Source: Patescibacteria group bacterium (lineage in GTDB: Bacteria > Patescibacteriota > Minisyncoccia > Phycocordibacterales > DATDWN01). From it: 64,000 nt of DNA. The position numbers and the translations under genes are program-made. The stretch lies in assembly GCA_040384485.1 (NCBI GenBank), contig JAZKJH010000002.1:22235-86234 (forward strand), given 5' to 3'. Below, piece by piece: positions 27,127 to 58,394 of this stretch. The notes under the pieces are model-generated. The model was given only the letters and a program-made list of their open reading frames with translations. It did not search any database and had not been told where the DNA came from. The stretch's first letter is position 1, and each line of letters opens with the position of its first letter.

Positions 27127-27132
27127 TGTTAA

Positions 27133-27172
27133 CAAAAAAAACTCCCTCTATGTTTATAGAGGGAGTTTTTTG
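27133..27172. terminator. Bidirectional terminator A8-actccctctat-gttt-atagagggagt-T6
   Basis: Perfect 11-bp stem. Confidence 0.7.
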
Positions 27173-27180
27173 TATTTCAC

Positions 27181-27429
27181 TTATTTTCTAACCGCCTTCA
27201 CTATTGCTATTAACACTATTGCACCTATTAGAGCGACAATAAAGCTGTAAACATTGAAGCCAGTTGTGCCTGATTCTCCGAGCATGTTCATAATCCATCC
27301 TCCAAGTACGGCACCTATAATACCAACTATTATATTCATTAAGGCACCTTGTTGTGCATCAGTTTTCATAATAAGTGATGCAATCCAACCAACCAGTGCT
27401 CCAAATATAATCCATAATATGAATCCCAT
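27181..27429 (-). CDS. GlsB/YeaQ/YmgE-family (transglycosylase-associated) small membrane protein
   Basis: [21 protein letters not shown]... family pattern. Confidence 0.65.
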
Positions 27430-27465
27430 ATTTTTATATATTATTTAGTAAATTAATTTTAAGTT

Positions 27466-27981
27466 CTATTTCTGATACTGTCTTACTTCCTCCGCACCAT
27501 TTTCCATGAAGATATCCATTGCGCTTGCATCATCAGCTCTACTCACAACCAAGACTCCTCCTCTTCGAACATGGTTTTCATACAGCTTGGCATCCTCGTC
27601 AGAGACTCCTAGCTGGCTCAGTCCTCCAATAAGACCACCTGCAGCGGCTCCTGTAGCTGCTCCAGCGACTGTAGTGGCTGCAGCTCCAGATAGACCTAGT
27701 GCTGTTGCCAAAGGCCCAGCTACGAACAGTGTACCCAACCCAGGCAGAATACCATTGGCTACAACTAAGCCAGCTATCGTTCCTAACACTGCGCCTGTGG
27801 TTGCACCAGCTACTGCTCCACCACCTACTTTTTCTCCAGTTTGGCTATCCTTCACATCACCTTCATGGTCTTTATAAACACATGAAATATCTTTATCAGA
27901 GATATTAATATCTCTTAATTGGTTGATTACTTCTTCAGCTTTCGCTTTGTTAGGAAATACTCCACTAGTTATTGTTGTCAT
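27466..27981 (-). CDS. DUF1269-like general stress protein with a Gly/Ala-rich membrane segment
   Basis: Charged N- and C-terminal domains flank a G/A-rich hydrophobic core. Confidence 0.45.
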   Translation of the reverse strand: MTTITSGVFPNKAKAEEVINQLRDINISDKDISCVYKDHEGDVKDSQTGEKVGGGAVAGATTGAVLGTIAGLVVANGILPGLGTLFVAGPLATALGLSGAAATTVAGAATGAAAGGLIGGLSQLGVSDEDAKLYENHVRRGGVLVVSRADDASAMDIFMENGAEEVRQYQK

Positions 27982-28016
27982 ATTTTATTTATTTAGAATT
28001 AGATATTTTTTTGTAT

Positions 28017-28289
28017 TTAAGCACTGTGCCAATTATGGTTGTTGTTAGATTTTTTGAATTCATTCCATTCGTCTTCCAGATTGGTCCAGGCACTATCTAC
28101 ACTTCCTTTGAAATCATCCCACTTGTCTTCTGCCACATCCTGCCACTTGTCTAAGTTTCTTTTGAACTCATCTCTAGTGCTCTCATATTGAGAGCGCATG
28201 TTCGACTTCCACTTTGAAGCCTCTTTATCCATGTTTTCTATTTTTGATGAATATCTATTTACATAACTTTCTTGATCTCGATGTGTCAT
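28017..28289 (-). CDS. Hypothetical Trp/acidic-rich small protein
   Basis: 90-aa ORF with no recognisable motifs. Confidence 0.3.
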   Translation of the reverse strand: MTHRDQESYVNRYSSKIENMDKEASKWKSNMRSQYESTRDEFKRNLDKWQDVAEDKWDDFKGSVDSAWTNLEDEWNEFKKSNNNHNWHSA

Positions 28290-28427
28290 GGTTTTTATGG
28301 TTATTTGTAATGTATTAGATATTTAATCTAATTTTAATATTATATTAGATATATGCAACAAAAGTCAATCAGATTTATCTACAGCATGTTAATATAAAGT
28401 TAATAAACTGTGGAAAAGAAAAAAGTC

Positions 28428-29237
28428 TTATTCACAGGCTGTAACTGAGCCGGATTCATAACCTTTATTAAAAGCAGAAATTCTTTGAGCTGAAGAACCA
28501 TGAGTCCAGGATTCTGGATTAACTCTACCTTGGGTTGTTGCTTGGATTCTATCGTCGCCTACAGCCGAAGCAGCATCAATGGCTTCATGTATTTCTCCAG
28601 GCTCAAACACTCCCAAATCTTTAATTGAGTATGCCCATAAACCAGCAAAACAATCCGCTTGCAATTCTGCTTGTATTGACTCGGCATTTGATTGGTCTTG
28701 TCTTAGTCCAAACAACTGTTGTTGAACATGGTGACCAACTTCATGAGCTATAACATATGCTTCGGCCACATCGCCACCAGTTGCACCAAAACGCCTTTGC
28801 AGCTCATCAAAAAAGGTTTCGTCCAGGTAGATAGTCTCGTCCAGTGGACAATAATGCGGGCCTACACTAGAGTCAGCCCCACCACATCCAGATGCAGTAC
28901 CTCCTCGAAACAGCACGAGTTTTGGCTCGTTATAAACTAAGTTATTTCTAGTAAAAACATCGGACCACATATCATTGGCTGAACCTAGTACAGTAGAAAC
29001 AAAAACTTCATATTCATCTGTTCCTTCAAAATCACTAGCGTTATACATCTGTGCATTTTGTGACGATACGTTTTGAAGCTGATTTAAAACATCACCCACA
29101 TCTCCACCCCCAAGAAAGTTCATAAGTAAAACTAGTACTATCCCTGTTATTCCTAAACCCCCGCCTATCATAGTGGCAGGGGATCCACGTCTATCTTCCA
29201 CATTTCCTCGGCCCCCAAGTTTGTTCCATATGGCCAT
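28428..29237 (-). CDS. Putative neutral zinc metallopeptidase (YpfJ-like), membrane-anchored
   Basis: HEVGHHVQ HExxH motif and an N-terminal TM. Confidence 0.65.
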   Translation of the reverse strand: MAIWNKLGGRGNVEDRRGSPATMIGGGLGITGIVLVLLMNFLGGGDVGDVLNQLQNVSSQNAQMYNASDFEGTDEYEVFVSTVLGSANDMWSDVFTRNNLVYNEPKLVLFRGGTASGCGGADSSVGPHYCPLDETIYLDETFFDELQRRFGATGGDVAEAYVIAHEVGHHVQQQLFGLRQDQSNAESIQAELQADCFAGLWAYSIKDLGVFEPGEIHEAIDAASAVGDDRIQATTQGRVNPESWTHGSSAQRISAFNKGYESGSVTACE

Positions 29238-29368
29238 AGTTTTTAAATGAGTTAAGCTTGTAAGTATATATCTTAAAACTTAATATATTTTTAATCAAGT
29301 TTACTTTTTTAAATATATAAAAATAGTCACTTTGTTTAAGAACAACAAAGTGACTATTCGTGTTTGAT

Positions 29369-29740
29369 TCAGGCAATATCCGATGGGTACATGAACTTTC
29401 CACCCGGGTATTTTCTGATTAGTTGAAAAAAAGAACGCAAATCATCTCGACCAGCCTCTGGTGTAAAGACGATAATGTCCAAAAGCTCATCTTTCCTGCT
29501 CGGTTCTTCCGAGCCACTCAAGAGCTGAATACCATTTGGTAGGTATTGCGCTGCGAGACGCACTAAGTGTGGATTGGCAGAAGGAGGAATTGCATGATGC
29601 ATGTAGGAACTGATGAGCGCCTTGAGTAGATCTGCAAGCGCTGCTGGCAATTCCTGGCTTCGCACACGTCCCTCAAGGTCTTGCCAGAACTCTGAGCGTA
29701 AAACAGTGAGAGGTTGTTCGCTAGTTGTGGTTGTTGTCAA
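29369..29740 (-). CDS. Hypothetical protein (GC-rich island)
   Basis: GC-rich 123-aa ORF. Confidence 0.35.
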   Translation of the reverse strand: MTTTTTSEQPLTVLRSEFWQDLEGRVRSQELPAALADLLKALISSYMHHAIPPSANPHLVRLAAQYLPNGIQLLSGSEEPSRKDELLDIIVFTPEAGRDDLRSFFQLIRKYPGGKFMYPSDIA

Positions 29741-29762
29741 CGTGTTCTCCTCGGAAAAGAAT

Positions 29763-30065
29763 CTATCTGCTGAAAATGAAATGAGCTTCGTAGTTTTCGT
29801 TATAGCCAGGTGAGTCGTACTTCACTTTCCATCCTGCTGCCCGGTATGCTTCTTCAACGTTCAGCCACTTACTTGAAAACCTGCGACTACCGTTCAGTTT
29901 TGCAATGATGAGTTTGGAAACTTCGGGAGTTTCGATTTTTGCCCTACCATCGGCAAAGTTTTGAGCGATGAGCTCATCGAAAGCCTCAAAGACCTCAGGT
30001 GGGAAACTTTCTCGCTGTCTTGCTCCAACCTCACTCGGCTTCATAGGTCCAGTACGTTTAGCCAT
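29763..30065 (-). CDS. Hypothetical protein (GC-rich island)
   Basis: GC-rich 100-aa ORF, 23 bp upstream of the previous gene on the same strand. Confidence 0.35.
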   Translation of the reverse strand: MAKRTGPMKPSEVGARQRESFPPEVFEAFDELIAQNFADGRAKIETPEVSKLIIAKLNGSRRFSSKWLNVEEAYRAAGWKVKYDSPGYNENYEAHFIFSR

Positions 30066-30114
30066 TCGGCCTCCTTTGGAACATTACCATTTATATGAGA
30101 TATGTCAAATAAAA

Positions 30115-31020
30115 CTAATCAAATATTTTTATTAGATACTGGTTGATTTCTCTCTGGTCTAAGTCGTAAAAGAATTTATTTTCATTACGTAATTTGGTTG
30201 CAAGTTCAACACCGACGAAACGCCAATGCCATGGTTCGTATTGATAAAAAGTGTTGTTTTTAGGGTAGGAGAGTATGAACCCGAAACGATGGGCGTTTTT
30301 TGTCAGCCATTCATATCCTTGAGTCTTATCGAAACTGTTTAAGAGTTCACCTGCAGTGGAGTTAGTAAAATCCACAGTACTTCCAAGTTGGTGTTCCGAG
30401 TATCCCTGGTCTGCAGAAAATTGGTTTGCACCGGATCCATAGACTATTTTGTAGTTAGCTTTCAGGTTCGCCTGAGTATTGAATGAACGATATCCAGATA
30501 AAACTAGAAGATTAACTCCCTCAGCTTCCGCAGTTTTAATCATGTTTTCCAAGTAAGGTTTTACGTTGGAGTGAATGGTTTCAGGTTTGTCCTTCCTTAA
30601 TAAAAAGGTCGTCTCTATGGGTGCCAAAGAAGAGGGGAGAAAATACTCGTTCAAAAAATATACCTTCGAATATTTCTGAAGGAGTTCCTCATCAGTTTTA
30701 CTAAGCTTGTCTAGAATACCAACAGTAGATGATAGAGACTGAATTTGCTGGAAAAAAGAATCGTTTCGTAAAGTCTCTCCAGTTAGTTTGGTGTAAAGCT
30801 CAGAGTTCTCTGTTTTTGCAACTAGTAGATGTTGAGTTTTTTCTTCCAGTGCTTTGGTTGTAGAGGCGAGTTCGTTTTGTGTGGCAAGTAAGTTAGTATT
30901 CAAGTCTTTGTATCTAAAACTGCCGAATACAATAAAACCAATGAGTGCTAAAAGTACCAAACTTAGTATGTATGTAGAAGCGGGTATTGAAGACAAATAA
31001 TATTTAAATTTGTGGGACAT
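30115..31020 (-). CDS. M15-family D-alanyl-D-alanine carboxypeptidase (VanY-like), with an N-terminal TM and a coiled-coil
   Basis: SGYRSF..Q, SEHQLGSTVDF and EPWHWRFVG (zinc-binding H/D/H) motifs. Confidence 0.7.
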   Translation of the reverse strand: MSHKFKYYLSSIPASTYILSLVLLALIGFIVFGSFRYKDLNTNLLATQNELASTTKALEEKTQHLLVAKTENSELYTKLTGETLRNDSFFQQIQSLSSTVGILDKLSKTDEELLQKYSKVYFLNEYFLPSSLAPIETTFLLRKDKPETIHSNVKPYLENMIKTAEAEGVNLLVLSGYRSFNTQANLKANYKIVYGSGANQFSADQGYSEHQLGSTVDFTNSTAGELLNSFDKTQGYEWLTKNAHRFGFILSYPKNNTFYQYEPWHWRFVGVELATKLRNENKFFYDLDQREINQYLIKIFD

Positions 31021-31067
31021 AAATACAATTATAGCATGTCCAAAAACTATGTTTTATATAAAGCAAA

Positions 31068-31108
31068 ACCCGCGCGATTGCACGGATCGTGCTATCGGCG
31101 GGTGTTTT
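31068..31108 (-). terminator. GC-rich long hairpin (acccgcgcgattgcacg...cgtgctatcggcgggt) terminating the minus-strand genes of island 31120..32438
   Basis: Imperfect about 15-bp stem, followed on the minus strand by a T-rich tract. Confidence 0.45.
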
Positions 31109-31119
31109 GAGAGAGTTAT

Positions 31120-31323
31120 TTATTTCTTCTGACGTTTCTCCCATTTGTCCAGAGCCTTAACTGCCTGGGCAAAGGTCAGATCACCCTCACGGAATGCATT
31201 TAGGATGCCACCCGGGGTGGAGCTGTAACCCACCTTTAAATGGCGTGGTTTCTTTTTCAGAATTTTAGAGATTATGTTCGCTGTCTCGACTAAACCTCTC
31301 CACTCGTTGTCTGTCTTCGGCAT
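31120..31323 (-). CDS. Hypothetical small basic protein (GC-rich island)
   Basis: 67-aa ORF with shifted GC. Confidence 0.3.
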   Translation of the reverse strand: MPKTDNEWRGLVETANIISKILKKKPRHLKVGYSSTPGGILNAFREGDLTFAQAVKALDKWEKRQKK

Positions 31324-31493
31324 CGGACCTCCCGCTGTTAGAATGACATAATAAAATTATAATGTCAAACATGGTGGTTGATAGTGCAGTTTTTATTCAT
31401 AAGAATCATTTTGAAGGAACATTTCACAAGAAAACATGTAAAAAAAGAGCCCGTGCAGAGGGGGTGTAATACTACACGAACTCTTTCACGGAC

Positions 31494-31892
31494 TCAAACC
31501 TCGCAACCTTCCTTGCGAAGGGCTTCGAGGTATTCGGGTGTCGGACGCTTTGCTTCCGCCGCTTCCTCAATCTGGCTGTCTTTGGCTACAAAGGTGCGAA
31601 GGGCATCCAGGATTTGGGGGACAAGGATTTCCCACGAAAACATTGGACTTTTCAACATCTGGATTTGATATCGGTTGTAGGAAATCCTCTCTTCCATTCC
31701 ATCCAGGGCACTGATTGCCTGAGAGAAGTTGATGAGACCATCAGTGTTGATAGCTTCTTTCTCAAACTCCTCTTTGGCACGATCGGAGATGCTGAAGTGA
31801 GAAAAAACAAGGATGCTTCCACGAATGAGACGTTGATCGACGTGAATCTGCAAGCAGTTGGGATTCGGACAATATTCAATCTGGTATTTCAA
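31494..31892 (-). CDS. Hypothetical protein (GC-rich island), N-terminal YCPNPNC zinc-finger-like motif
   Basis: 132-aa ORF. Confidence 0.35.
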   Translation of the reverse strand: MKYQIEYCPNPNCLQIHVDQRLIRGSILVFSHFSISDRAKEEFEKEAINTDGLINFSQAISALDGMEERISYNRYQIQMLKSPMFSWEILVPQILDALRTFVAKDSQIEEAAEAKRPTPEYLEALRKEGCEV

Positions 31893-32021
31893 AACTCACC
31901 TCCAAAGTTGGTCTAATAAAAAGCTAGCACAATTTTAGCATGTGTCAATGTGTACTCTGAGGCTATGGGTATTTTTGAGATACAGAAACCGCTCGCATAG
32001 CGAGCGGTGGTCTTTGAATCT

Positions 32022-32438
32022 CTAGAGTTTGCGGCAATTGATTGCCCAAACAATGGCTTTCCATTCTTCTTTTGTAAGCTTCGACTTGCCTAGCTTTGCT
32101 GTTCTTAATGTCTGAGAGATTGATTTCTTACGCTCCTTCTCTCGGTCTCTCTCCGCGCGAGCTTTCAATCTTTCTGCATGTTTACCGAAGCAGTCGGGTT
32201 GTCCCATGAGAAGTCTGACATTTTGTTTGTAACGCTCACAGAGTCCTTTGTACTTCTCAGTTTCGAAACTTCGGCTTGAATCCTGCCTCGCTCGAGTTAT
32301 TAGTTTTTTCGCATGGCTCCCGTAGCAATCTGGTGATCGATCGTCCGAGTACACGACCTTTTCATTGTACTTACCACAAAGAAATTCGTATTCCCGGATA
32401 TCGTCAGAGATTGCACTCATAATACTGCCCATATACAC
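32022..32438 (-). CDS. Hypothetical protein with an internal repeat of P-D-C-[YF]-G-x-H-A-[KE]-[KR]-L...RA (GC-rich island)
   Basis: ...SPDCYGSHAKKLITRAR... and ...QPDCFGKHAERLKARAERD... are both present. Confidence 0.35.
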   Translation of the reverse strand: MYMGSIMSAISDDIREYEFLCGKYNEKVVYSDDRSPDCYGSHAKKLITRARQDSSRSFETEKYKGLCERYKQNVRLLMGQPDCFGKHAERLKARAERDREKERKKSISQTLRTAKLGKSKLTKEEWKAIVWAINCRKL

Positions 32439-32501
32439 CTCTACTTTTAAAGATAGGGTTTAGTGATAAAAAAGTCAAATAATGGATTTTTAAATGTGTT
32501 C

Positions 32502-32554
32502 CACAGCTTTACTCCCGCAACGCAAAAAACGCCTTTCGGCGTTTCTCTTGCTCC
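32502..32554. repeat. Direct repeat copy 1 (53 nt, 3 mismatches) of the tRNA-Asn 3'-flank terminator plus the last 4 nt of the tRNA
   Basis: cacagctttactcccgcaacgcaaaaaacgcctttcggcgtttctcttgctcc versus 32942..32994. Confidence 0.7.
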
Positions 32555-32607
32555 AAACTTGTAACTATGTTCGAAATGGTATATCAGAAGGATAGACGGG
32601 AATTAAA

Positions 32608-32745
32608 TTAAAACTTAACCACTAATAGAACACCTATAACAATAGCTGCGATTGCAGAAATTACCCCTGAGTGCTTAAAGGGATAAAAATGGCTTATACC
32701 AAAAACAAGAAAGAATACGACTTGAGCGATAGTGAGTAGTGACAT
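32608..32745 (-). CDS. Possible 45-aa hydrophobic micropeptide lying between the two direct repeats
   Basis: The minus-strand ORF MSLLTIAQVVFFLVFGISHFYPFKHSGVISAIAAIVIGVLLVVKF is not in the ORF track (under 60 aa). Speculative. Confidence 0.2.
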   Translation of the reverse strand: MSLLTIAQVVFFLVFGISHFYPFKHSGVISAIAAIVIGVLLVVKF

Positions 32746-32941
32746 ACAAGAAAAATGTTAAAAAACTTTATAATAGATGCTTTTATAATTATAGCATGAA
32801 CAAACTTTTCATATGTGCTTTCCTGGCTACTGCGGGGAGGGGTATCGAAACTTACAGTTTCAGTACACCTTTTCTATTTTTTACTTCACAAAGTTTGTAA
32901 AAAATTATCACAGGTTTTCGATCCCTAACGTAAAGCTGTAA

Positions 32942-32994
32942 CACAGCTTTACTCACGCAACGCAAAAAACGCCTTTCAGCGTTTTTCTTGCTCC
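32942..32994. repeat. Direct repeat copy 2; this one is the functional terminator of tRNA-Asn and overlaps the tRNA 3' end
   Basis: cacagctttactcacgcaacgcaaaaaacgcctttcagcgtttttcttgctcc. Confidence 0.7.
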
Positions 32995-33062
32995 GCGGGT
33001 AGGGATCGAACCTACGACCAATCGCTTAACAGGCGATTGCTCTACCACTGAGCTACCGCGGA
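32991..33062 (-). tRNA. tRNA-Asn (anticodon GTT)
   Basis: Reverse complement TCCGCGGTAGCTCAGTGGTAGAGCAATCGCCTGTTAAGCGATTGGTCGTAGGTTCGATCCCTACCCGCGGAG: 7-bp acceptor stem, anticodon loop CTGTTAA, T-loop TTCGATC. Confidence 0.85.
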
Positions 33063-33201
33063 ATGGGGTGTTTGTTGGTTGCAAACACAAAATCATAATA
33101 TCAAAAATAGAGGATAATGCAATTAAATGCAGACATGCCAACAAAAACTGGTAGCTTATATTGACTTTTAATATAAATATAGTATAATATAAGAGGAGAC
33201 A

Positions 33202-33489
33202 ATGATGAATAGAAACTCTTTGTGGATGGCCATTTCAGGCGTCACAGGGTTTCTATTCTTCCTTGTGGCTAACTTATCCGAACTGTTTGTCGGACTTAAC
33301 TTACTTGCAGGGTCGTTGCAACTCTGCCTCAATATCTTCGTGTTTACGGTTTGGCTAAAAGCTTTCCGTGAATTAAAAGGCTTGAAAAAATTTGTGGCTT
33401 TTTGGGGAGTCTGTGTGCCAGTCGTAATGGCTAGTTACACTCTCTACAAGGTTTTTCTACCGACTTTGCAGCAATACATGCGAAGCTAA
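33202..33489 (+). CDS. Small three-TM membrane protein
   Basis: Hydrophobic 95-aa ORF followed by a terminator. Confidence 0.35.
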   Translation: MMNRNSLWMAISGVTGFLFFLVANLSELFVGLNLLAGSLQLCLNIFVFTVWLKAFRELKGLKKFVAFWGVCVPVVMASYTLYKVFLPTLQQYMRS

Positions 33490-33490
33490 C

Positions 33491-33523
33491 ACCCTCAAGG
33501 AGTCTATCCTTGAGGGTTTTTTC
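33491..33523 (+). terminator. Intrinsic terminator accctcaagga-gtctat-ccttgagggt followed by T6
   Basis: Perfect 10-bp stem. Confidence 0.7.
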
Positions 33524-33585
33524 ATGTTATTTTAATTATCCACTTTTATGTTTGTCCGAGTTTTTTGAGGTGATATAATGAACTT

Positions 33586-33957
33586 ATGAATATAAAAATA
33601 CGTTCAACAAATTTCGAATTAACACCAGCTATAGAAGAATACGTATACAAAAAACTTTCTTCTCTAGATAAGTTTTTCGTAAGTGAAGCGTTATGTGAGG
33701 TAGAGATAGGTAAGTCTACGAATGCACATAAAACAGGAGATATATTCAAAGCTGAAATAAATATAGTTGGAGGCGGGATAGACCAAGTGTATGTCACAAC
33801 TGAAGAAATAGATTTATATACTGCAATAGATATTGTTCGAGATGAGGCAGAAAGAAGTATCGTTAATAAAAAGAAAAAGAAGGACACCATGATAAGAAAG
33901 GGAGGAGCGATGGTAAAAAATTTACTTAAACGATTGGACTTTAGAAAACCACGCTAA
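33586..33957 (+). CDS. hpf: Ribosome hibernation promoting factor (HPF/RaiA family)
   Basis: MNIKIRSTNFELTPAIEEYVYKKL... canonical N-terminus. Confidence 0.85.
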   Translation: MNIKIRSTNFELTPAIEEYVYKKLSSLDKFFVSEALCEVEIGKSTNAHKTGDIFKAEINIVGGGIDQVYVTTEEIDLYTAIDIVRDEAERSIVNKKKKKDTMIRKGGAMVKNLLKRLDFRKPR

Positions 33958-34121
33958 TGGAATTATCGAATCGATTAAAACAGAAGGCAAGTAATGGCTT
34001 GGTGCTGTTTGTTCTAGCTTGCACTATTATAATTGTCGGACTGCTGTATGTTATGCAAAAAGCAGAAGCGACTCGGGAACACTTGAATGAACAATCAGAC
34101 TTCGAAAGTTATTTGAATTAA
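33957..34121 (+). CDS. Small single-TM protein (54 aa) translationally coupled to hpf
   Basis: TAATG overlap at 33955-33959; hydrophobic core LVLFVLACTIIIVGLLYV. Confidence 0.3.
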   Translation: MELSNRLKQKASNGLVLFVLACTIIIVGLLYVMQKAEATREHLNEQSDFESYLN

Positions 34122-34990
34122 TGTATTCCGTTTAGATAATCCTGATGCGCTATTTCTTTGCCTCCCTCAGGGGTAACTTTTTCTATAGTAAAAACTCCGT
34201 TCTGAATACTAGCTTTTCTTATTACCACCCGCTTGTTTTTGTTGTTTAAGTCAAAAAAATGTGGGTTTAAATGTTGATATGCTCTTACTTTTTTAATATT
34301 AACAACTGGGTCGTCACTAAGGTTAACTAAGGCATCTTTTTTGTCTAATTTTTGGCAGAACGTAGCCAGACTATGGTTTTGCTCTAAGGGTTCTATTGTT
34401 CTATTTATTATTTTTTCAAAAACAGGAATTAAAATTTCTACACTTTTTTTAGCAAGTTTCTGCTCGAGGTCGTCGGCATATGGCGGATTATTTTCCTCTA
34501 TATCAACTGTCTTTTCTTGTGCCAGTATTGGTCCGTGATCCATCTCTTCATCAAGTTTAATAATAGTTACACCGGTTTCCTTTTCTGACAAAATTGCACT
34601 CTCAATAGGGGAGGCTCCTCGAAGTTTTGGAAGAAGGGAAGGATGCACGTTTATTGTTCCGTGTTCCGGTATATCTAAAATGTTTTTAGGTATTATTTTT
34701 CCATAAGAAGCTACTACAGTAAGATCAATATTATCCCCTGAAGTTTTTTTTATTTCTTGAAACGCCTCATCGGTTCTCAAGGTTTTCAGTTGAAGAAAAG
34801 GTATTTTGTTCGATTCAGCCCATATTTTTACCGGGGGTGGGGTTAAAACAAGTTTTCTTCCCTGAGGTTTGTCCTCTGTTGTGACAACAAGCATCGGCAT
34901 AATGCCATACTTTTTTAGCTCATCAAGAATAATTACAGAAAACTTGGATGTTCCAAAGAAAATCCATTTCAATTTATTTAGTTGTTCCAT
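34118..34990 (-). CDS. fmt: Methionyl-tRNA formyltransferase
   Basis: N-terminal Rossmann (IFFGTSKFS), the HPSLLPKLRG motif and a C-terminal domain. Confidence 0.85.
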   Translation of the reverse strand: MEQLNKLKWIFFGTSKFSVIILDELKKYGIMPMLVVTTEDKPQGRKLVLTPPPVKIWAESNKIPFLQLKTLRTDEAFQEIKKTSGDNIDLTVVASYGKIIPKNILDIPEHGTINVHPSLLPKLRGASPIESAILSEKETGVTIIKLDEEMDHGPILAQEKTVDIEENNPPYADDLEQKLAKKSVEILIPVFEKIINRTIEPLEQNHSLATFCQKLDKKDALVNLSDDPVVNIKKVRAYQHLNPHFFDLNNKNKRVVIRKASIQNGVFTIEKVTPEGGKEIAHQDYLNGIH

Positions 34991-35525
34991 CTTTTTTGGG
35001 TAAGATTTCTTCTAAATCTTTTGCTTTATCTATAAAAAGGATACCGTCCAGGTGATCTATCTCATGCTGGAATATTTGTGCCAAAAGTCCAGTTCCTCCT
35101 CGGCTAAATTTTTTTCCGTTTTCGTCCAATGCCTCAACAGTTGCTTTTTCTGACCTTTTAACTTTTCCGTATAGATATCTAACTGAAAGACAACCTTCTT
35201 CTAGAACTTTCTTTTCTTTGGATATTTTTTTAATAATTGGGTTGATGTATACAGAGTCTTTATATAGTGATTCCGTTTCTGGAGTAACCTTTTTGTTCAT
35301 CATTGCCACCTTCCTAGAAACAACAAAAATTCGGAGTGAATATCCTATCTGGGGAGCAGCAATAGCCACACCATCGTCTTGGGAATCAAGAGATTCTCTC
35401 ATCTCCTTTAGGATTTTCTGTATTTTACTGTAAGGGATTTCCCGAGGGTCTACTTCTTTGGCGACCTCACGAAGTACCGCGGAGTCTTTTTGGACTATTT
35501 TCTTCATAAGGTTAAAATACCACAA
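34974..35525 (-). CDS. def: Peptide deformylase
   Basis: GVAIAAPQIG, EGCLS and HEIDHLDG motifs; overlaps the fmt start. Confidence 0.85.
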   Translation of the reverse strand: MWYFNLMKKIVQKDSAVLREVAKEVDPREIPYSKIQKILKEMRESLDSQDDGVAIAAPQIGYSLRIFVVSRKVAMMNKKVTPETESLYKDSVYINPIIKKISKEKKVLEEGCLSVRYLYGKVKRSEKATVEALDENGKKFSRGGTGLLAQIFQHEIDHLDGILFIDKAKDLEEILPKKDGTTK

Positions 35526-35534
35526 AAAAAACCA

Positions 35535-37436
35535 TTATAAAAGCGAAGAAGGGTTAACCTTTATTGCAAAGCTCAGAGGCAGTTCTCTCAATTTTCTTAG
35601 TAAATCTCTATTAACCCATTCAGCTTCTTCCATGGAAATAAGCCCATGTCCGGTGTATTTTGCATCTCCTCCCGGTCTCCATCCTGGGAAAATAGAAAGC
35701 TCGTGGGGTTTTAAAAACAATGCCACACTCTCCATGTTTTTTTTGACTGCTAGCTTCTCGCCCTCAGTTGTGATTTTTATGTACAGTGCAAAAGGAGGGT
35801 AGCCAATATTTTTTCTGTCGGCTATCTCATCCTTATAAAAGTCGAGCAGGTTTCCTCTCACAGCATATTCAAATATTTTTAACCCGAAAGAATCTGGCTC
35901 TTGCCTTGTTTGTATAAGAAAGTTTCTTTGAGTAAGTGCACGCATTTCTAGTAGGATGTGAAATATTTTTTCGTTAATTTGAAAATCAGGTATCGAAAAA
36001 TATGAATCAATCGATGCGACAGCAGAGTTTTCTAGCTCTTGGTTTAAATAAGATATAGCCATTTCAGTTCCTATGAGCACGCTTCCTGGGGTACTGTAAA
36101 AAGCATCTCTCATTTTTACTGCCTGCTTGTGGGTTTTTACATTGTCTTTATCCATCACAAACACTGCCATTCCAGGAAACAAAGTAAGTATTTCCTCTTT
36201 TATTTTTTCTGTGCCAATTCCGAGTGGGGTGAGTCTCCACCCGTTACAGTGCACACACAGCTCTTCAGCCACTCTTCTTTCTCCACAATGATTACAAACA
36301 AACATATGTTTACTTACACCTTCTTTTTTGCCATACAATACTATCGGAGCCTTGCAGTTTTTACATGCCACGGTAGTGCCACAGTCACTACACACAGTGA
36401 TAGGATACATACCTTTTCTACCGCAGAATACAAAAGTGCGTTCGTTGTTCTCTTTGGTTTTTTCCAATATTGCTTTTAGTTCAGGACTTAGTAGCGAGAA
36501 CTCCTTTTTTTTCATATCCTTGGAATGGTTGTTTTGGATGATTTCACATTTCGCGCTCGTTAGAGATCTGAATTTTAGGGGAGCTAGGGCTGTGTATTTT
36601 CCGCTTTTTTCCTTCCACAAAGTTTCAACTCGCAAAAGGATGTCTCCAAATATTATTTTTGTTTTTGTTTCCTTGGCGATTGTCTCGGCAACATGACGGA
36701 TATCTAGAAAAGGTCTAGCTTGCATTTTGTATCCTCGAGAACTTTCTTTGTCTAAAATAATAACTCCAATATCTTTTCTTGGTATAGATAAAAAGGACCC
36801 TGTTCCTATGATTAGCACAGGGTGGGGGTTTTGAACAACCTCGTTCCATTTAGTTTCCATATCTTTTTTGGAAAGACCCCCATGAAAAATATATGTATAC
36901 GGTTCGATACCTTTTTCTAGGGTGTTTTTACTATTTAAAATATCTTCTGTAGTAGGTAAGCAAAAGAACACACTTCGATTTTTTGCAAATTCTTCTCTTA
37001 TAATACTCCTGTATGTAGCGTATCTTTCTTCAGTTTCTGTTTGGAGCAACTGAGTTTCATAAAAGTTTTCTATTTCTCCTTCAGTGGCTTCTTGTAAATT
37101 CGGAGACTCAAGTATGGACTGAGGCAATAGGGAATATATAGTTGAACCCAAACTTGCTGCTGCATAGTCGGCCACCTTTTCACAACTTTTGATAAATGAA
37201 TTTAAAAATATTTTTTTTCCGTTCCCTTTGTTTATTTTCCTAATTCCATAAGGAAGGTTTTTAATTTCCGACTTAATATCCTTTACTTCTTTTGTTTCCA
37301 CAACCAAACCAAAGCTTTCTTTGTTTCTTATGGGTATAGATACCACAGATCCTATGGCTATATCTTGGTTTGTAAAATAAGTGAGTGTGTCTGTACCTAT
37401 CCCTTTTTTTATCGGTATTACAGTTACAGTTTGCAT
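35535..37436 (-). CDS. priA: Primosomal protein N' (PriA) homolog with degenerate Walker A and Walker B motifs
   Basis: N-terminal 3'-BD-like domain, Cys-rich zinc-binding region (CSDCG...CKNC...CNHCG...CVHCNG) and C-terminal domain. LLQTETEERY sits where the GxGKT P-loop is expected, and DKES where DEEH is expected. Confidence 0.65.
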   Translation of the reverse strand: MQTVTVIPIKKGIGTDTLTYFTNQDIAIGSVVSIPIRNKESFGLVVETKEVKDIKSEIKNLPYGIRKINKGNGKKIFLNSFIKSCEKVADYAAASLGSTIYSLLPQSILESPNLQEATEGEIENFYETQLLQTETEERYATYRSIIREEFAKNRSVFFCLPTTEDILNSKNTLEKGIEPYTYIFHGGLSKKDMETKWNEVVQNPHPVLIIGTGSFLSIPRKDIGVIILDKESSRGYKMQARPFLDIRHVAETIAKETKTKIIFGDILLRVETLWKEKSGKYTALAPLKFRSLTSAKCEIIQNNHSKDMKKKEFSLLSPELKAILEKTKENNERTFVFCGRKGMYPITVCSDCGTTVACKNCKAPIVLYGKKEGVSKHMFVCNHCGERRVAEELCVHCNGWRLTPLGIGTEKIKEEILTLFPGMAVFVMDKDNVKTHKQAVKMRDAFYSTPGSVLIGTEMAISYLNQELENSAVASIDSYFSIPDFQINEKIFHILLEMRALTQRNFLIQTRQEPDSFGLKIFEYAVRGNLLDFYKDEIADRKNIGYPPFALYIKITTEGEKLAVKKNMESVALFLKPHELSIFPGWRPGGDAKYTGHGLISMEEAEWVNRDLLRKLRELPLSFAIKVNPSSLL

Positions 37437-49555: not shown

Positions 49556-51013
49556 ATGGCATCACTAGAAGAAATAAGAGAGGGTAGAGTCGCAAAATTA
49601 GAACTATTAAGAAGTAAGGGAATCAATCCTTACCCAGCAAAGGTTCCGAGAGATTTTTCTATTGCTGAACTAAAAACAGATTTTGATAAAAAAATACAAG
49701 AAGCTAAGCCTGTTTCAGTAGCTGGAAGAGTTATGGTAAAGCGCGGACAAGGGGCAATACTTTTTGCTGTTATGTTCGACGGCACAGAAAAAGTTCAGGC
49801 TATTTTCAAAAAAGATGCTATGAGTGAAGAAAGTTTTGCACTTTTTGGAGACACAGTGGATATGGGAGATTTTATTTCCATAACAGGAGTTCCAATGGTT
49901 TCTAAAACTGGAGAGAACAGTATTATGGTAGATACTTGGCTTATGGCTTCTAAATCACTTCTTCCTTTGCCTGAAAAGTGGCATGGACTACAGGATGTGG
50001 AGGAAAGATACAGAAAGCGATACCTGGATTTTTTGATGAACGATGAGTTGCGAGATTTGATATTGAAAAAATCAAAGTTTTGGTCAGCAACCAGAAACTT
50101 TATGATTAAAAAAGGTTTTCTAGAAGTAGAAACACCAACCCTTGAGACTACTACAGGTGGAGCAGAGGCAACACCGTTTAAAACCCACCACAACGATTTT
50201 GACCTGGATGTTTATATGCGTATTTCTATAGGAGAGTTGTGGCAGAAAAGACTCATGGCCGGTGGTTTTCCTAAAACTTTTGAAATAGGGAGGGCTTATA
50301 GAAACGAGGGAACTAGTCCTGAACATGCTCAGGAGTTTACTAACATGGAGTTTTACTGGTCTTTTGCTGACTTTAATGACGGAATGAACTTGGTTCGCGA
50401 AATGTACATCGAAATAGCTAATGAAGTTTTTGGTACTACAAAGTTCACTGCAAAAGGTCACACATTTGATTTGGGAGACGAGTGGACCAAAATAGATTAT
50501 GCTGGAGAAGTTTTAAAACAAACAGGCATAGATATTCACAGTGCCACGATGGAGGATATGGAGAAAAAGCTTCAAGAGCTTGGTGTAAAATATGATGGAG
50601 AAAATCGAGAGAGGCTTATGGATACTTTGTGGAAGTACTGCAGGAAAAACATTTCTGGTCCAGCTTTCCTAATAAACCACCCAACTATCGTAGCTCCACT
50701 TGCAAAAAGTAATGTTGACGGCAAAACAGTACAGAGATTTCAGCCTATTTTTGCGGGGAGTGAAGTGGGTAACGGTTACTCAGAGTTGAACGACCCAATA
50801 GATCAGCGAAATAGATTTGAAGAACAACAAAAACTAATAGACAAAGGAGATACAGAAGCTATGATGGCCGACTATGAATTCGTAGAGATGCTAGAACACG
50901 GAATGCCACCTACATGTGGTTTTGGTTTCGGGGAAAGAATGTTTGCAATCCTTGCAGACAAACCATTACGTGAACTACAAGCATTTCCACTCATGAGACC
51001 AAAAAGCGACTAG
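49556..51013 (+). CDS. lysS: Lysyl-tRNA synthetase (class II)
   Basis: N-terminal OB anticodon-binding domain and class II motifs (..FLEVETP.., ..GFGFGERM..). Confidence 0.9.
   Translation: MASLEEIREGRVAKLELLRSKGINPYPAKVPRDFSIAELKTDFDKKIQEAKPVSVAGRVMVKRGQGAILFAVMFDGTEKVQAIFKKDAMSEESFALFGDTVDMGDFISITGVPMVSKTGENSIMVDTWLMASKSLLPLPEKWHGLQDVEERYRKRYLDFLMNDELRDLILKKSKFWSATRNFMIKKGFLEVETPTLETTTGGAEATPFKTHHNDFDLDVYMRISIGELWQKRLMAGGFPKTFEIGRAYRNEGTSPEHAQEFTNMEFYWSFADFNDGMNLVREMYIEIANEVFGTTKFTAKGHTFDLGDEWTKIDYAGEVLKQTGIDIHSATMEDMEKKLQELGVKYDGENRERLMDTLWKYCRKNISGPAFLINHPTIVAPLAKSNVDGKTVQRFQPIFAGSEVGNGYSELNDPIDQRNRFEEQQKLIDKGDTEAMMADYEFVEMLEHGMPPTCGFGFGERMFAILADKPLRELQAFPLMRPKSD
50937..50997 (+). repeat. 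Direct repeat copy 1: the functional 3' end of lysS
   Basis: gaatgtttgcaatccttgcagacaaaccattacgtgaactacaagcatttccac... is repeated at 51401..51458. Confidence 0.7.
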
Positions 51014-51035
51014 TACTTATTAAGTTATCTAGATT

Positions 51036-51311
51036 ATGAGTCCAAAATTTAAAACAATATTATCTACCGTTCTTCTGTTGGCTATCATACCTGTCTGGTT
51101 TTGGAGTTTATTGATGGCAATGCTTACAGATGGCAGAGTTTGTTACGGTAGTGATGTTTGTTGGTATTCAGTATACTTTAGTTTGTATATTTTACCTCTT
51201 ACTCCGATCGCATATGTTACATATCTAATAACAAAAAAAGATATCTACTTTTATATTATTTTGAGTTTGTTTGGTTTTGCATGCCTAGCTTTTTTATTGA
51301 TGACTTTATAA
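51036..51311 (+). CDS. Small three-TM membrane protein located between the duplicated lysS 3'-end segments
   Basis: Hydrophobic 91-aa ORF. Confidence 0.35.
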   Translation: MSPKFKTILSTVLLLAIIPVWFWSLLMAMLTDGRVCYGSDVCWYSVYFSLYILPLTPIAYVTYLITKKDIYFYIILSLFGFACLAFLLMTL

Positions 51312-51400
51312 CAAACAAATGTAAGTAATATTTCTGCAATACACTTGGAGAATTTATTAACTGAATAAATAATTAGTAACATAAGCTGATTTTATAGAGA

Positions 51401-51458
51401 GAATGCTCGCAATCCTTGTAGACAAACCATTACGTGAACTACAAGCATTTCCATTGAG
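51401..51458 (+). repeat. Direct repeat copy 2: an orphan, slightly diverged fragment of the lysS 3' end (would encode ...ERMLAILVDKPLRELQAFPL...), with no upstream ORF
   Basis: About 93% identity to 50937..50992; in-frame stops lie immediately upstream. Confidence 0.7.
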
Positions 51459-51536
51459 GTGTCGTAATACAGTATAAAATTTGTTTTTCCTGGGGATGGA
51501 CTACTGTACCTAGATCTGATAGTCTTTTTCACAGAG

Positions 51537-51848
51537 GTGAAAATGTTCGAGTCAGTCAGGGAATTTCTTGCCAAATATAACATCAGTTTGTGGTCAACCG
51601 CTGAGAGCAAACCGAAGGAAGTCAAAAGACTGTATTTTGACTTCTCAGAAGCTGGATGGAATAGGCTGGTTGAGCTGTCAGAAGCTGCAGATCAGACACC
51701 CCAAGCTTTCGCGATCGATGCGATGCGGGAGTCCATGCTGTTTCGAGATCTTTTGGCCACAGCCAAAGCACAAGGCCACGATTTAGTCGTGGGGGTCATC
51801 CACGAAGACGGTTCTGCAGAAGAGATACCGCTTTTCAAAGCACAGTAA
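51537..51848 (+). CDS. Hypothetical protein (GC-rich island)
   Basis: GC-rich 103-aa ORF followed by a terminator. Confidence 0.35.
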   Translation: MKMFESVREFLAKYNISLWSTAESKPKEVKRLYFDFSEAGWNRLVELSEAADQTPQAFAIDAMRESMLFRDLLATAKAQGHDLVVGVIHEDGSAEEIPLFKAQ

Positions 51849-51854
51849 TTTTAA

Positions 51855-51888
51855 GGTCCTAACTACATCAGTAGTTGGGGCCTTTTTG
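51855..51888 (+). terminator. Imperfect hairpin aggtcctaactac/gtagttggggcct followed by T5
   Basis: About 13-bp stem with two mismatches or wobbles. Confidence 0.45.
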
Positions 51889-58296: not shown

Positions 58297-58357
58297 CATT
58301 AGAAAAATCAGATTCAGGGATAGAAAGTGAGTTGTTCTGTCAAAAATGTCAAATATA

Positions 58358-58388: not shown

Positions 58389-58394
58389 GGAAGC

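What the first reader, a model, noticed from the sequence alone, without database searches (positions are those of the whole stretch)
32502..33062. 53-nt direct repeat of the tRNA-Asn 3' flank (terminator plus last 4 nt of the tRNA) bracketing a 45-aa hydrophobic micro-ORF: att-like signature
The segment cacagctttactc[c/a]cgcaacgcaaaaaacgcctttc[g/a]gcgttt[c/t]tcttgctcc occurs at 32502..32554 and 32942..32994, with 3 mismatches. The second copy overlaps the 3' end of tRNA-Asn and forms its terminator.

The 390 bp between the copies hold only a 45-aa hydrophobic ORF (minus strand, 32608..32745). GC-rich foreign genes lie immediately beyond copy 1.

Duplication of a tRNA 3' end or flank is the footprint of site-specific integration (attL/attR). 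The absence of an integrase suggests a degraded element, or a small cassette mobilised in trans. The lysS locus at 50937-51888 has the mirror-image architecture.
Basis: seen in the sequence. Interest (0 to 1): 0.55.

Follow-up and report, generated by a model that had tools for sequence, protein, structure and literature searches.

The report
Duplicated tRNA-Asn terminator brackets inserted gene
Two copies of the terminator that follows a tRNA-Asn gene in an uncultured Patescibacteria genome bracket a 440-bp inserted block, which holds a leftover tRNA end and a real, widely conserved 45-aa membrane-protein gene; this is a recombination scar at a tRNA hot spot, not a self-contained mobile element.

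Summary
The repeat is real. It is 64 nt at 89% identity, with a 53-nt core carrying 3 mismatches, spaced 440 bp, and none is expected by chance. An independent assembly contains both copies.

Each copy is a terminator-like hairpin. Copy 2 follows tRNA-Asn and copy 1 follows the 45-aa ORF.

That ORF belongs to a 45-aa protein family found across Paceibacteria (52 clusters) and is under purifying selection.

The spacer also holds a pseudo 3' end of tRNA-Asn inside an inverted-repeat unit built from tRNA-Asn sequence.

One relative (L030) has a single terminator of this type and no insert, so it serves as an empty site. Another relative (L025) carries the whole block at 85-89% identity. Its flanking genes are only about 70% identical and saturated at synonymous sites, so the block has moved laterally.

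The GC-richer 138-aa gene beyond copy 1 is a conserved neighbour of tRNA-Asn in two relatives and is not cargo. No recombinase gene lies in the 64 kb.

I favour recombination anchored on the invariant tRNA and its terminator (0.45) over integrase-mediated integration (0.30). The lysS locus shows the same pattern.

The parts
32991..33062 (-). tRNA-Asn (GTT), uninterrupted, no encoded CCA
   Evidence: Rfam tRNA 73.5 bits; ARAGORN
32931..32994 (-). Repeat copy 2 (R2). It comprises the last 4 nt of the tRNA plus C, the terminator-like hairpin, and GCGTTGCGTGAG plus the start of a second hairpin. It serves as the tRNA-Asn terminator.
32964..32986 (-). A-tract/GC hairpin/T-tract of copy 2 (AAAAACGCTGAAAGGCGTTTTTT on the tRNA strand). 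Its symmetry would let it act in both directions.
   Evidence: fold, z -4.8
32930..32952 (.). Perfect 23-nt palindrome or hairpin with a GTT loop. The equivalent hairpins in L025 have different stems but keep the pairing.
   Evidence: 6 of 9 pairs changed on both sides, 96% of cells paired, n=3
32917..32927 (+). Antisense copy of the tRNA-Asn T arm (TTCGATCCCTA read on the + strand). It is invariant in the window, in two L025 units and in L029.
32877..32904 (.). AT-rich hairpin (TTTTTTAC...GTAAAAAA) at the centre of the inverted-repeat unit X
32826..32852 (-). Pseudo 3' end of tRNA-Asn (AGTTTCGATACCCCTCCCCGCAGTAGC), in the same orientation as the tRNA gene
   Evidence: local alignment to the tRNA; 4 of 2000 shuffles score as high in the window, 0 of 2000 for the L025 copy
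32788..32796 (-). Extended -10-like element TGCTATAAT upstream of the micro-ORF. It is conserved in L025, and the same motif type precedes VanY and the 132-aa ORF.
   Evidence: (family D2). Function is inferred.
32608..32745 (-). Gene for a 45-aa protein, apparently two-helix and membrane-bound; a member of a conserved Paceibacteria family
32491..32554 (-). Repeat copy 1 (R1), with its hairpin at 32524-32545. It serves as the terminator of the micro-ORF and abuts the promoter region of the 138-aa gene.
   Evidence: Homology with L026 starts at about 32495.
32022..32438 (-). 138-aa gene (GC 0.446). It lies outside the repeat pair and is a conserved neighbour of tRNA-Asn in L026 and L028.
50933..50989 (+). 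Parallel case: the 3' end of lysS, first copy of a 57-nt repeat
51014..51888 (+). Parallel case: an ~875-bp insert between lysS and mraZ, absent in L031 and L032. It holds the 91-aa hydrophobic ORF (51036-51311), the orphan lysS 3' fragment (51397-51453) and the 103-aa GC-richer ORF (51537-51848).

Best explanation
The two repeat copies are two versions of the native 3' flank of tRNA-Asn. Each holds a hairpin terminator plus an adjoining hairpin.

They bracket a composite block that accreted at the 3' end of the tRNA. The block contains two things:
- a roughly 125-nt inverted-repeat unit built from tRNA-Asn 3'-half sequence, ending in a displaced pseudo 3' end of the tRNA;
- a promoter plus a genuine 45-aa membrane-protein gene.

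Copy 2 now terminates the tRNA transcript and copy 1 terminates the small gene.

**Proposed route (inferred)**
- The tRNA gene is 100% identical in the window and L026, and its exons are 100% identical in L025 and L028, although flanking genes compared with L025 are saturated at silent sites. It therefore acts as a portable homology anchor.
- Incoming DNA from relatives recombines in the tRNA on one side.
- On the other side it recombines either in the terminator (about 50-60 nt of near-identity) or at a short microhomology such as GGAG.
- Each such event installs a new flank next to the tRNA and pushes older 3' ends, terminators and genes outward.
- The window lineage most likely received the ready-made block (R2, X, promoter, ORF, R1) by a double crossover in the tRNA and in its own single terminator.

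No element-encoded enzyme is needed. The cell's homologous recombination, possibly after DNA uptake, would suffice.

**Shown:** the repeat, the anatomy, the empty site, the lateral sharing, the reality of the gene, and the absence of a recombinase in the window.

**Inferred:** the order of events and the recombination route.
For: **The repeat is real and independently assembled:**

**The terminator type is native to tRNA-Asn.**
- A block-free relative (L030) has one copy directly after the tRNA.
- Micro-ORF genes elsewhere (L033, L034) have unrelated terminators.

**The block is shared laterally.**
- Window 32508-32990 matches L025 3503-3979 at 85% (blastn) or 89% (MAFFT).
- Flanking genes are 65-76% identical, with synonymous difference 0.68-0.91, against 0.089 in the micro-ORF.

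**High identity stops at the anchors.** It ends at the tRNA on one side and just after the R1 hairpin on the other, as expected if those were the crossover anchors.

**Flank swap between near-identical strains.** L029 and L030 are 98.3% identical over 2043 bp and become unrelated exactly after GGAGC, the tRNA end plus 1 nt.

**Polarity in L025.** L025 has the same block further from the tRNA, behind extra units with a different terminator. This is consistent with the newest insert lying nearest the tRNA.

**A displaced pseudo 3' end lies inside the block**.

**The lysS locus repeats the pattern.**
- It has a conserved anchor gene, an orphan 3' fragment, a small ORF between the copies, and empty sites in L031 and L032.
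- The two lysS copies are 93% identical, not 100%, as for alleles from two lineages.

**No recombinase in the window:** no integrase, resolvase or transposase domain in the window ORFs scanned. The unscanned ORFs are those whose counterparts in L022, L023 and L031 carry housekeeping Pfam families or none, never a recombinase or transposase family.

**A documented precedent exists:** arrays built by homologous plus illegitimate recombination at the 3' end of a conserved gene (PMC5361080, found).
Against: - No direct evidence for the recombination route. Competence and RecA genes were not examined, and only 64 kb of a contig of at least 331 kb was available.
- The three X copies in L025 share the same derived changes in the pseudo 3' end. 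They are therefore copies of one another, not independent displacements, and an extra process (unequal crossing-over or repeated integration of one element) is needed.
- Pseudo 3' ends in two independent unit types (L025/window and L029) both begin in the T arm. This hints at a preferred site, as for integrases.
- A serine-recombinase-like ORF starts 227 nt downstream of tRNA-Asn in a distant relative, L003.
- The conserved architecture of the unit (antisense acceptor, hairpin with covarying stem, antisense T arm) is not explained by passive accretion.
- The orphan lysS fragment has a sharp identity edge and a non-canonical tail, which simple displacement does not predict.
Confidence: 0.45

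Rival explanations
1. Site-specific integration. A small circular DNA carrying a copy of the tRNA-Asn 3' end and/or terminator (attP) is integrated at the tRNA 3' end by a recombinase encoded elsewhere. The repeat copies and the pseudo 3' end are attL/attR remnants, and repeated integration gives the tandem units seen in L025.
For: - Direct repeats bracket a discrete block with presence/absence among relatives.
- A significant pseudo 3' end of the tRNA starts in the T arm, a classic crossover region (the sublocation preference is from my own knowledge of tRNA-targeting integrases).
- Every junction falls exactly at GGAGC.
- L025 carries a tandem array of near-identical units.
- The hairpin is dyad-symmetric with covarying arms, as a protein-binding site could be.
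- A Resolvase-like ORF lies next to tRNA-Asn in L003.
- The block has moved laterally.
Against: - No integrase, resolvase or transposase in the 64-kb window or in L025, L026, L028, L029 or L030 next to the site.
- The 53-64-nt repeat overlaps the tRNA by only 4 nt, and its copies differ at 7 of 64 positions, including the centre of the palindrome.
- The GGAGC junction is equally expected from divergence of native flanks next to an invariant tRNA.
- The block's core sequences are absent from IMG/VR and from INPHARED phages.
- Block GC (0.365) is close to the window average (0.387).
Confidence: 0.3
2. Local tandem duplication of the tRNA 3' end plus flank, by slippage or unequal crossing-over. 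It was inherited vertically by the window and L025 lineages and kept similar by functional constraint (terminators, structured RNA).
For: - The layout can be read as two tandem units (3' end, terminator, hairpin, antisense T arm, AT-rich segment), with the promoter and ORF inserted in the second.
- L025 has three or more tandem X copies.
- Both copies have an obvious function as terminators.
- The hairpin shows compensatory changes.
Against: - Synonymous difference in the micro-ORF between the window and L025 is 0.089, while seven flanking genes are at 0.68-0.91.
- The same ORF against other family members is at 0.88-0.93. Protein or terminator constraint cannot hold silent sites and about 480 nt of mixed sequence at 85-89%.
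- Units in L025 are mosaic: the interior is the same but the terminator and hairpin stem differ.
- The block is absent from L026, L028 and L030, which are about as related as L025.
Confidence: 0.1
3. Assembly artefact: two strain variants of the tRNA flank were concatenated.
For: - The window is from a metagenome-assembled genome.
- Logan contigs break inside the tRNA at 33017.
Against: - A separate k-mer assembly (L023) reads through both copies and the spacer.
- The copies share no exact stretch longer than 22 nt.
- L025, from another assembly (GCA_964483675.1), has the same block with the same internal junctions.
Confidence: 0.02

Closest known systems
att repeats of integrase-borne islands and prophages in tRNA genes (Campbell-type integration; my own knowledge, e.g. 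Williams 2002 on sublocation preference)
   Same: - A direct repeat involves the tRNA 3' end or flank and brackets an insert.
- A pseudo 3' end lies downstream of the intact tRNA.
- Relatives have an empty site.
- Tandem accretion occurs at one tRNA.
   Different: - No integrase is present.
- The insert is only 376 bp.
- The main repeat lies almost entirely downstream of the tRNA (4-nt overlap), and its copies are 89-94% identical, not identical.
- Composition is native.
- The cargo is a conserved housekeeping-like small gene.
Sequential displacement arrays at the 3' end of a conserved gene, made by homologous plus illegitimate recombination (Vibrio cholerae T6SS effector/immunity arrays, PMC5361080; Rhs and CDI orphan modules, my own knowledge)
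   Same: - A conserved anchor (tRNA-Asn, lysS).
- Orphan 3' fragments of the anchor lie downstream.
- Small genes sit between the fragments.
- The order is consistent with the newest unit lying nearest the anchor.
- No element-encoded recombinase.
   Different: - The anchor here is a tRNA and its terminator, not a toxin gene.
- There is no effector/immunity logic.
- Only one or two displaced units.
- The route is inferred, not shown.
Intrinsic (Rho-independent) terminators
   Same: Each copy is a GC hairpin followed by a T-run directly after a transcription unit. The preceding A-tract makes it symmetric.
   Different: The repeat extends about 30 nt beyond the terminator into an antisense-acceptor segment and a second hairpin. 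More than a terminator was therefore duplicated.
MITEs and tRNA-derived repeat elements
   Same: Unit X is about 125 nt, AT-rich inside, and has imperfect terminal inverted repeats that mimic the tRNA 3' half.
   Different: - It is not dispersed: no other copy in the 64-kb window or in the roughly 430 kb of related loci.
- It is always at tRNA-Asn.
- There is no clear target-site duplication.
Type I toxin or other small hydrophobic peptide genes flanked by long direct repeats (e.g. E. coli Ldr; my own knowledge)
   Same: A small hydrophobic peptide gene with its own promoter, flanked by long direct repeats, with a possible convergent structured RNA.
   Different: - The peptide is a conserved 45-aa family, nearly always exactly 45 aa, under purifying selection across many Paceibacteria.
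- No antisense RNA is shown.
- No toxicity evidence.

Membership tests
tRNA-targeting integrative element (attL/attR) | Direct repeat of the tRNA 3' segment at both ends of the insert | tested here: inconclusive
   The 64-nt repeat includes only 4 nt of the tRNA. A 27-nt pseudo 3' end exists, but it lies inside the spacer rather than at its end.
tRNA-targeting integrative element (attL/attR) | Integrase or recombinase gene within or beside the insert | tested here: not met
   No Phage_integrase, Resolvase, Recombinase or transposase hit in the window ORFs scanned. The unscanned ORFs have counterparts with housekeeping Pfam families or none in L022, L023 and L031. None lies beside the site in the relatives either.
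tRNA-targeting integrative element (attL/attR) | Empty site in related genomes | tested here: met
   L030 has tRNA-Asn followed by one terminator of the same type. L026 and L028 lack the block.
tRNA-targeting integrative element (attL/attR) | Excision to a circular form with a reconstituted attP | not testable with these tools
   This needs reads or PCR from the sample.
tRNA-targeting integrative element (attL/attR) | Cargo of foreign composition | tested here: not met
   Block GC is 0.365 against 0.387 for the window. The GC-richer ORFs lie outside the repeat pair.
Sequential displacement by homology-anchored recombination | Highly conserved anchor sequence immediately upstream | tested here: met
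   The tRNA-Asn gene is 100% identical in the window and L026, and its exons are 100% identical in L025 and L028. Flanking genes compared with L025 are saturated at silent sites. The lysS gene is 76-81% identical at the nucleotide level to L031 and L032.
Sequential displacement by homology-anchored recombination | Orphan 3' fragments of the anchor downstream, with older genes pushed outward | tested here: met
   Pseudo 3' end at 32826-32852. Orphan lysS fragment at 51397-51453 in the middle of the insert.
Sequential displacement by homology-anchored recombination | Illegitimate junctions at microhomology, at variable positions | tested here: inconclusive
   R1 begins at a 4-5-nt GGAG(C) match, and the 57 nt before it are not tRNA-like. 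There are too few independent junctions to judge.
Sequential displacement by homology-anchored recombination | DNA uptake and RecA machinery in the organism | not tested
   Only 64 kb of the genome was available.
Intrinsic terminator | GC-rich hairpin followed by a U-run at the end of a transcription unit | tested here: met
   Fold, located directly after the tRNA and 53 nt after the ORF stop. The simple scanner did not call it. Termination itself was not tested.
MITE | Many dispersed copies with terminal inverted repeats and a target-site duplication | tested here: not met
   Inverted ends are present, but sensitive blastn finds no copy elsewhere.
Integron cassette (attC) | IntI integrase and attI, and cassettes ending in attC hairpins with conserved R/L boxes | tested here: not met
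   No integrase. At lysS the repeat is coding sequence, not a hairpin.
Known RNA families (Rfam 15) | Covariance-model match for unit X or the repeat | tested here: not met
   At E<=1, only the tRNA matches within the repeat, spacer and unit X; the three other sub-threshold matches in 27000-36000 lie elsewhere. Only the tRNAs and group I introns match in the relatives.

The most novel reading that the evidence does not exclude
Unit X and the block around it may be a family of miniature (about 0.2-0.45 kb), integrase-less cassettes. They would be built from inverted mimics of the tRNA-Asn 3' half plus a covarying hairpin, and would insert precisely at the 3' end of tRNA-Asn in Paceibacteria. 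A recombinase encoded elsewhere, recognising the tRNA-like dyad, would mobilise them. They would carry their own terminator and could shuttle a conserved 45-aa membrane-protein gene between lineages. Alternatively, X may encode a tRNA-like small RNA convergent with tRNA-Asn.
Probability: 0.15. Interest if true: 0.65.

Novelty: new member of a known kind. Interest (0 to 1): 0.35.

Why it matters
Patescibacteria have tiny genomes and few recognisable mobile elements, so how they exchange genes is poorly documented.

This locus gives a concrete case at nucleotide resolution. An invariant tRNA gene and its terminator mark the borders of a block that moved between lineages whose housekeeping genes are saturated at silent sites. 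A second case sits at lysS in the same window.

The work also turns an anonymous micro-ORF into a member of a conserved, unannotated 45-aa membrane-protein family. It flags a conserved tRNA-Asn-derived inverted-repeat unit of unknown function.

None of this overturns current ideas. It is a clean example of a known kind of hot spot in a little-studied phylum.

Tried and rejected
- **Metagenome scan.** An exact scan for the 22-nt repeat core gave one hit, a chance match in a high-GC gut contig with no tRNA.
- **Virus and phage searches.** IMG/VR scans for the repeat core, the X core and the ORF core, and a blastn search of the block against INPHARED phages, all found nothing.
- **GTDB representatives.** The nearest species representative is only 54% identical in fmt, so that collection gave no close relative.
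- **A second pseudo-tRNA before copy 1.** I suspected that the 57 nt just before copy 1 were a decayed tRNA 3' half. Alignment scores are no better than shuffles, so I rejected this.
- **A hammerhead in L029.** A hammerhead-like CUGAUGA...GAAAC string in the L029 unit is not supported by Rfam.
- **Known RNA families.** Rfam finds nothing for unit X or the repeat.
- **Function of neighbouring ORFs.**
  - PHROGs and NCBIfam give nothing above threshold for the GC-richer ORFs, the 91-, 95- and 45-aa proteins; the only match is a weak PHROGs one for the 103-aa ORF (E 0.0013).
  - Pfam gives only sub-threshold matches for the subset scanned (132-aa ORF to Nfu_N, 20 bits against a cut-off of 27; micro-ORF to Na_H_antiport_1, 15 against 23.5).
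- **Integron, MITE and Xer/dif-type explanations.** Considered and rejected:
  - no IntI;
  - X is not dispersed;
  - the palindrome has a 3-nt centre, unlike dif.
- **Selection from the window/L025 pair.** dN/dS of the micro-ORF between the window and L025 (0.76, only 10 differences) says little about selection. The family-wide comparison does.
Full report

Yes.
- The repeat finder reports 32491-32554 and 32931-32994, 64 nt at 89% identity, spaced 440 bp.
- A 28-nt core pattern with up to 3 mismatches occurs only at these two places. It occurred in none of 100 dinucleotide-preserving shuffles.
- tRNA-Asn(GTT) is on the minus strand at 32991-33062. Copy 2 therefore covers the last 4 nt of the tRNA (GGAG) and the following C.
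- On the tRNA strand each copy folds as an A-tract, a GC hairpin with a GAAA loop, and a U-run. This is terminator-like. The simple scanner missed it, apparently because the T-run pairs with the A-tract.
- The structure is not an assembly artefact.
  - A Logan contig from run SRR26324625 (L023) reads through both copies.
  - The copies share no exact stretch longer than 22 nt.

**2. What lies between and around the copies?**

Read in the direction of the tRNA, the order is as follows.
- tRNA-Asn.
- Copy 2 (R2).
- A perfect 23-nt hairpin (32930-32952).
- An antisense copy of the tRNA T arm (32917-32927).
- An AT-rich hairpin (32877-32904).
- A pseudo 3' end of tRNA-Asn in sense orientation (32826-32852). 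Its alignment to the tRNA is beaten by 4 of 2000 shuffles in the window and 0 of 2000 in L025.
- An extended -10-like TGCTATAAT (32788-32796).
- The 45-aa ORF (32608-32745).
- 53 nt that are not tRNA-like.
- Copy 1 (R1).
- The promoter region of the 138-aa gene.

The spacer is therefore not just a micro-ORF. It contains a tRNA-derived inverted-repeat unit, which I call X, and a complete small transcription unit. R2 ends the tRNA unit and R1 ends the ORF unit.

**3. Organism and relatives**

The window comes from a metagenome-assembled Patescibacteria (Paceibacteria-like) genome, on a contig of 331,679 bp. The order fmt, HPF, tRNA-Asn is conserved in relatives. What follows the tRNA differs in every relative.

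| Locus | HPF identity to window | What follows tRNA-Asn |
|---|---|---|
| L030 | 78% | One terminator of the same type (…AACGCAAAAACGCC…GGCGTTTTTTGGCTCC), then a convergent gene. No repeat, no micro-ORF: an empty site. |
| L026 | 80% | A different terminator, about 520 bp of unrelated DNA, then a homologue of the 138-aa gene. |
| L028 | 88% | Also has the 138-aa homologue, about 0.9 kb from the tRNA. |
| L029 | 78% | A different terminator followed by an X-like unit with a different interior. |
| L025 | 82% | The whole block, but separated from the tRNA by extra X units and another terminator, across a scaffold gap. |

L029 and L030 are 98.3% identical over 2043 bp. They become unrelated exactly after GGAGC, the tRNA end plus 1 nt. 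The 3' end of this tRNA is therefore a recurrent recombination boundary.

**4. The block has moved laterally**

- Window 32508-32990 aligns to L025 3503-3979 at 85% (blastn) or 89% (MAFFT), with the same internal junctions.
- The genes on both sides are 65-76% identical at the nucleotide level.
- Seven flanking genes have a proportion of synonymous differences of 0.68-0.91, which is saturated. In the micro-ORF it is 0.089, that is 3 synonymous and 7 non-synonymous differences.
- Constraint on the protein or the terminator cannot hold silent sites and about 480 nt of mixed sequence that similar.
- High identity ends at the tRNA on one side and just after the R1 hairpin on the other.

**5. The micro-ORF is a real, conserved gene**

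- A search of 5.8 billion proteins found 52 clusters at 65-87% identity. Almost all are exactly 45 aa, and those that carry a source name come from Paceibacterota, Pacebacteria or Nomurabacteria.
- The consensus is MSLLTIAEVVFFLVFGISHFYPFKYS..I.AIAAIVVGVLLVVKF. By eye this is two hydrophobic helices joined by a conserved GISHFYPFK loop.
- Against L033 the synonymous difference is 0.88 and the non-synonymous 0.08. Against L034 they are 0.93 and 0.18. That is strong purifying selection.
- In those genomes the gene sits in other contexts, with no tRNA on the loci fetched and with unrelated terminators.
- So the R-type terminator belongs to the tRNA-Asn flank, and the small gene came to lie within it.
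- No Pfam or NCBIfam family reaches threshold for this protein.

**6. The GC-rich genes**

- The ORFs beyond copy 1 are GC-richer (0.446-0.478 against 0.387). None reaches a family threshold in Pfam, PHROGs or NCBIfam; the best is a sub-threshold Nfu_N match for the 132-aa ORF.
- They lie outside the repeat pair.
- The adjacent 138-aa gene is 77% and 53% identical in protein to genes downstream of tRNA-Asn in L026 and L028. That divergence is of the same order as their HPF identities (80% and 88%).
- L025 lacks these genes but has both terminator copies.
- The repeat is therefore not the boundary of that island.

**7. No recombinase**

- No integrase, resolvase or transposase domain was found in the window ORFs I scanned.
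- The unscanned ORFs are those whose counterparts in L022, L023 and L031 carry housekeeping Pfam families or none, never a recombinase or transposase family.
- One distant relative (L003) has an ORF starting 227 nt after tRNA-Asn that matches the Resolvase N-terminal domain. It scores 22.9 bits against a cut-off of 23.3, and only 46 aa are on the contig.

**8. The lysS parallel**

- The last part of lysS (50933-50989) recurs at 51397-51453, 57 nt at 93% identity.
- L031 (LysS 93% identical) and L032 (84%) have lysS, a terminator and mraZ within about 300 bp.
- The window instead has an insert of about 875 bp (51014-51888). In order it holds a 91-aa hydrophobic ORF, the orphan lysS fragment, and a 103-aa GC-richer ORF.
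- The orphan fragment is in the middle of the insert. That fits two successive arrivals.
- Its tail (FPLRCRNTV*) differs sharply from the conserved FPLMRPK. I cannot explain this.
- The 91-aa protein has only one other 50%-identity cluster representative among 1.84 billion.

**9. How it most likely works**

Three routes give the same topology.

*(a) Homology-anchored recombination, favoured at 0.45.*
- The tRNA, which is invariant among these lineages, and its terminator are the only stretches similar enough for recombination between diverged genomes. DNA from a relative can therefore replace or extend the flank.
- Joins inside or next to the old tRNA end leave orphan 3' ends and old terminators further out.
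- This explains several features:
  - the non-identical copies;
  - the 4-nt overlap, as a microhomology join;
  - the identity tract that ends at the tRNA and at R1;
  - the sharp swap between L029 and L030;
  - the lysS case;
  - the lack of any recombinase gene.
- A documented precedent is the displacement arrays at conserved genes in Vibrio cholerae (PMC5361080).

*(b) Site-specific integration in trans, 0.30.*
- For: the pseudo 3' end starting in the T arm, the precise GGAGC junctions, the tandem near-identical units in L025, a dyad-symmetric hairpin whose arms covary (6 of 9 pairs changed on both sides, n=3), and the L003 resolvase.
- Against: no enzyme, no excision evidence, imperfect copies, and a repeat that lies almost wholly outside the tRNA.

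*(c) Local tandem duplication with vertical descent, 0.10.* The silent-site result contradicts this.

An assembly artefact is effectively excluded (0.02). Both (a) and (b) are recombination scars at a tRNA hot spot. They differ in the enzyme and in whether the block can excise.

**10. Comparison with known systems**

- The locus works like an att-type scar or a displacement array, but it does not pass the membership test for an integrative element. There is no integrase, the composition is native, and the main repeat barely involves the tRNA.
- Unit X is not a MITE, because it is not dispersed. The locus is not an integron cassette, and X matches no Rfam family.
- X has a fixed architecture in three genomes: terminator, antisense acceptor, covarying hairpin with an invariant GTT loop, an invariant antisense T arm (TAGGGATCGAA), an AT-rich centre, and a sense pseudo 3' end.
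- X folds better on the + strand (z -6.2 against -3.0). Its function is open.

**11. Verdict**

The att-like interpretation is partly supported.
- This is a new example of a known kind of feature, a recombination hot spot and scar at a tRNA 3' end, in a phylum where such events are little documented.
- Useful by-products are a conserved 45-aa protein family and an unexplained tRNA-derived inverted-repeat unit.
- Interest is moderate (0.35).

Noticed in passing
L025 4401-4635 and L028 3556-3809 (relatives; the window tRNA at 32991-33062 is uninterrupted): In two relatives the tRNA-Asn gene is split in the anticodon loop by a group I intron (Rfam RF00028, 57.2 and 63.5 bits against a gathering score of 50). 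The L028 intron carries a 107-aa ORF with a borderline HNH match (21.0 bits, cut-off 21.4). ARAGORN misses these tRNAs. Group I introns in Patescibacteria tRNAs are mentioned in PMC8172020.
   Followed up: partly
window 32608-32745: The 45-aa ORF belongs to an unannotated family, nearly always exactly 45 aa long. It forms 52 clusters at 90% identity, and the clusters that carry a source name come from Paceibacterota, Pacebacteria or Nomurabacteria. The loop GISHFYPFK is conserved. No Pfam or NCBIfam family reaches threshold.
   Followed up: partly
window 50933-51888: An insert of about 875 bp lies between lysS and mraZ, with an orphan lysS 3' fragment in its middle. It is absent from two relatives (L031, L032). 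The orphan has a sharp identity edge and a non-canonical tail.
   Followed up: partly
window 1200-1295 and 4387-4482: Two copies (82% identical over 85 nt) of a roughly 95-nt long-hairpin element, with compensatory differences between the copies (z about -5.8). One follows a PD-(D/E)XK nuclease gene and the other follows hisS. They bracket 3.2 kb that includes a 186-aa ORF with GC 0.576. No Rfam match.
   Followed up: partly
window 58225-60780: tRNA-Glu(CTC) is followed by genes for an S24 peptidase (LexA/repressor-like), a 123-aa ORF, a caspase-like Peptidase_C14 and a ThsB-type TIR protein. This may be a small defence islet next to a tRNA.
   Followed up: no
L029 804 / L030 681: Two JGI contigs are 98.3% identical over 2043 bp (tRNA-Asn through def). 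They become unrelated exactly one base after the tRNA discriminator.
   Followed up: yes
L003 7357-7494: In a distant relative (fmt 48% identical) an ORF beginning 227 nt downstream of tRNA-Asn matches the Resolvase N-terminal domain (22.9 bits, cut-off 23.3). The contig ends after 46 codons.
   Followed up: partly
window 32022-32438: The 138-aa protein has an internal duplication with the motif C..(x)..PDC[YF]G.HA..L..RA. It has homologues in L026 and L028 but matches no known family.
   Followed up: partly
window 31024-31044, 31928-31948, 32784-32804: A shared promoter-like motif (TTG..CATGCTA[TA]AAT on the minus strand) precedes VanY, the 132-aa ORF and the micro-ORF.
   Followed up: no
one search hit list (P0142, P0149, P0168, P0171, P0174, P0180): Some LysS proteins of this clade are about 630 aa long and carry a C-terminal PF09391 domain, so the lysS 3' end is variable in other ways too.
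   Followed up: no
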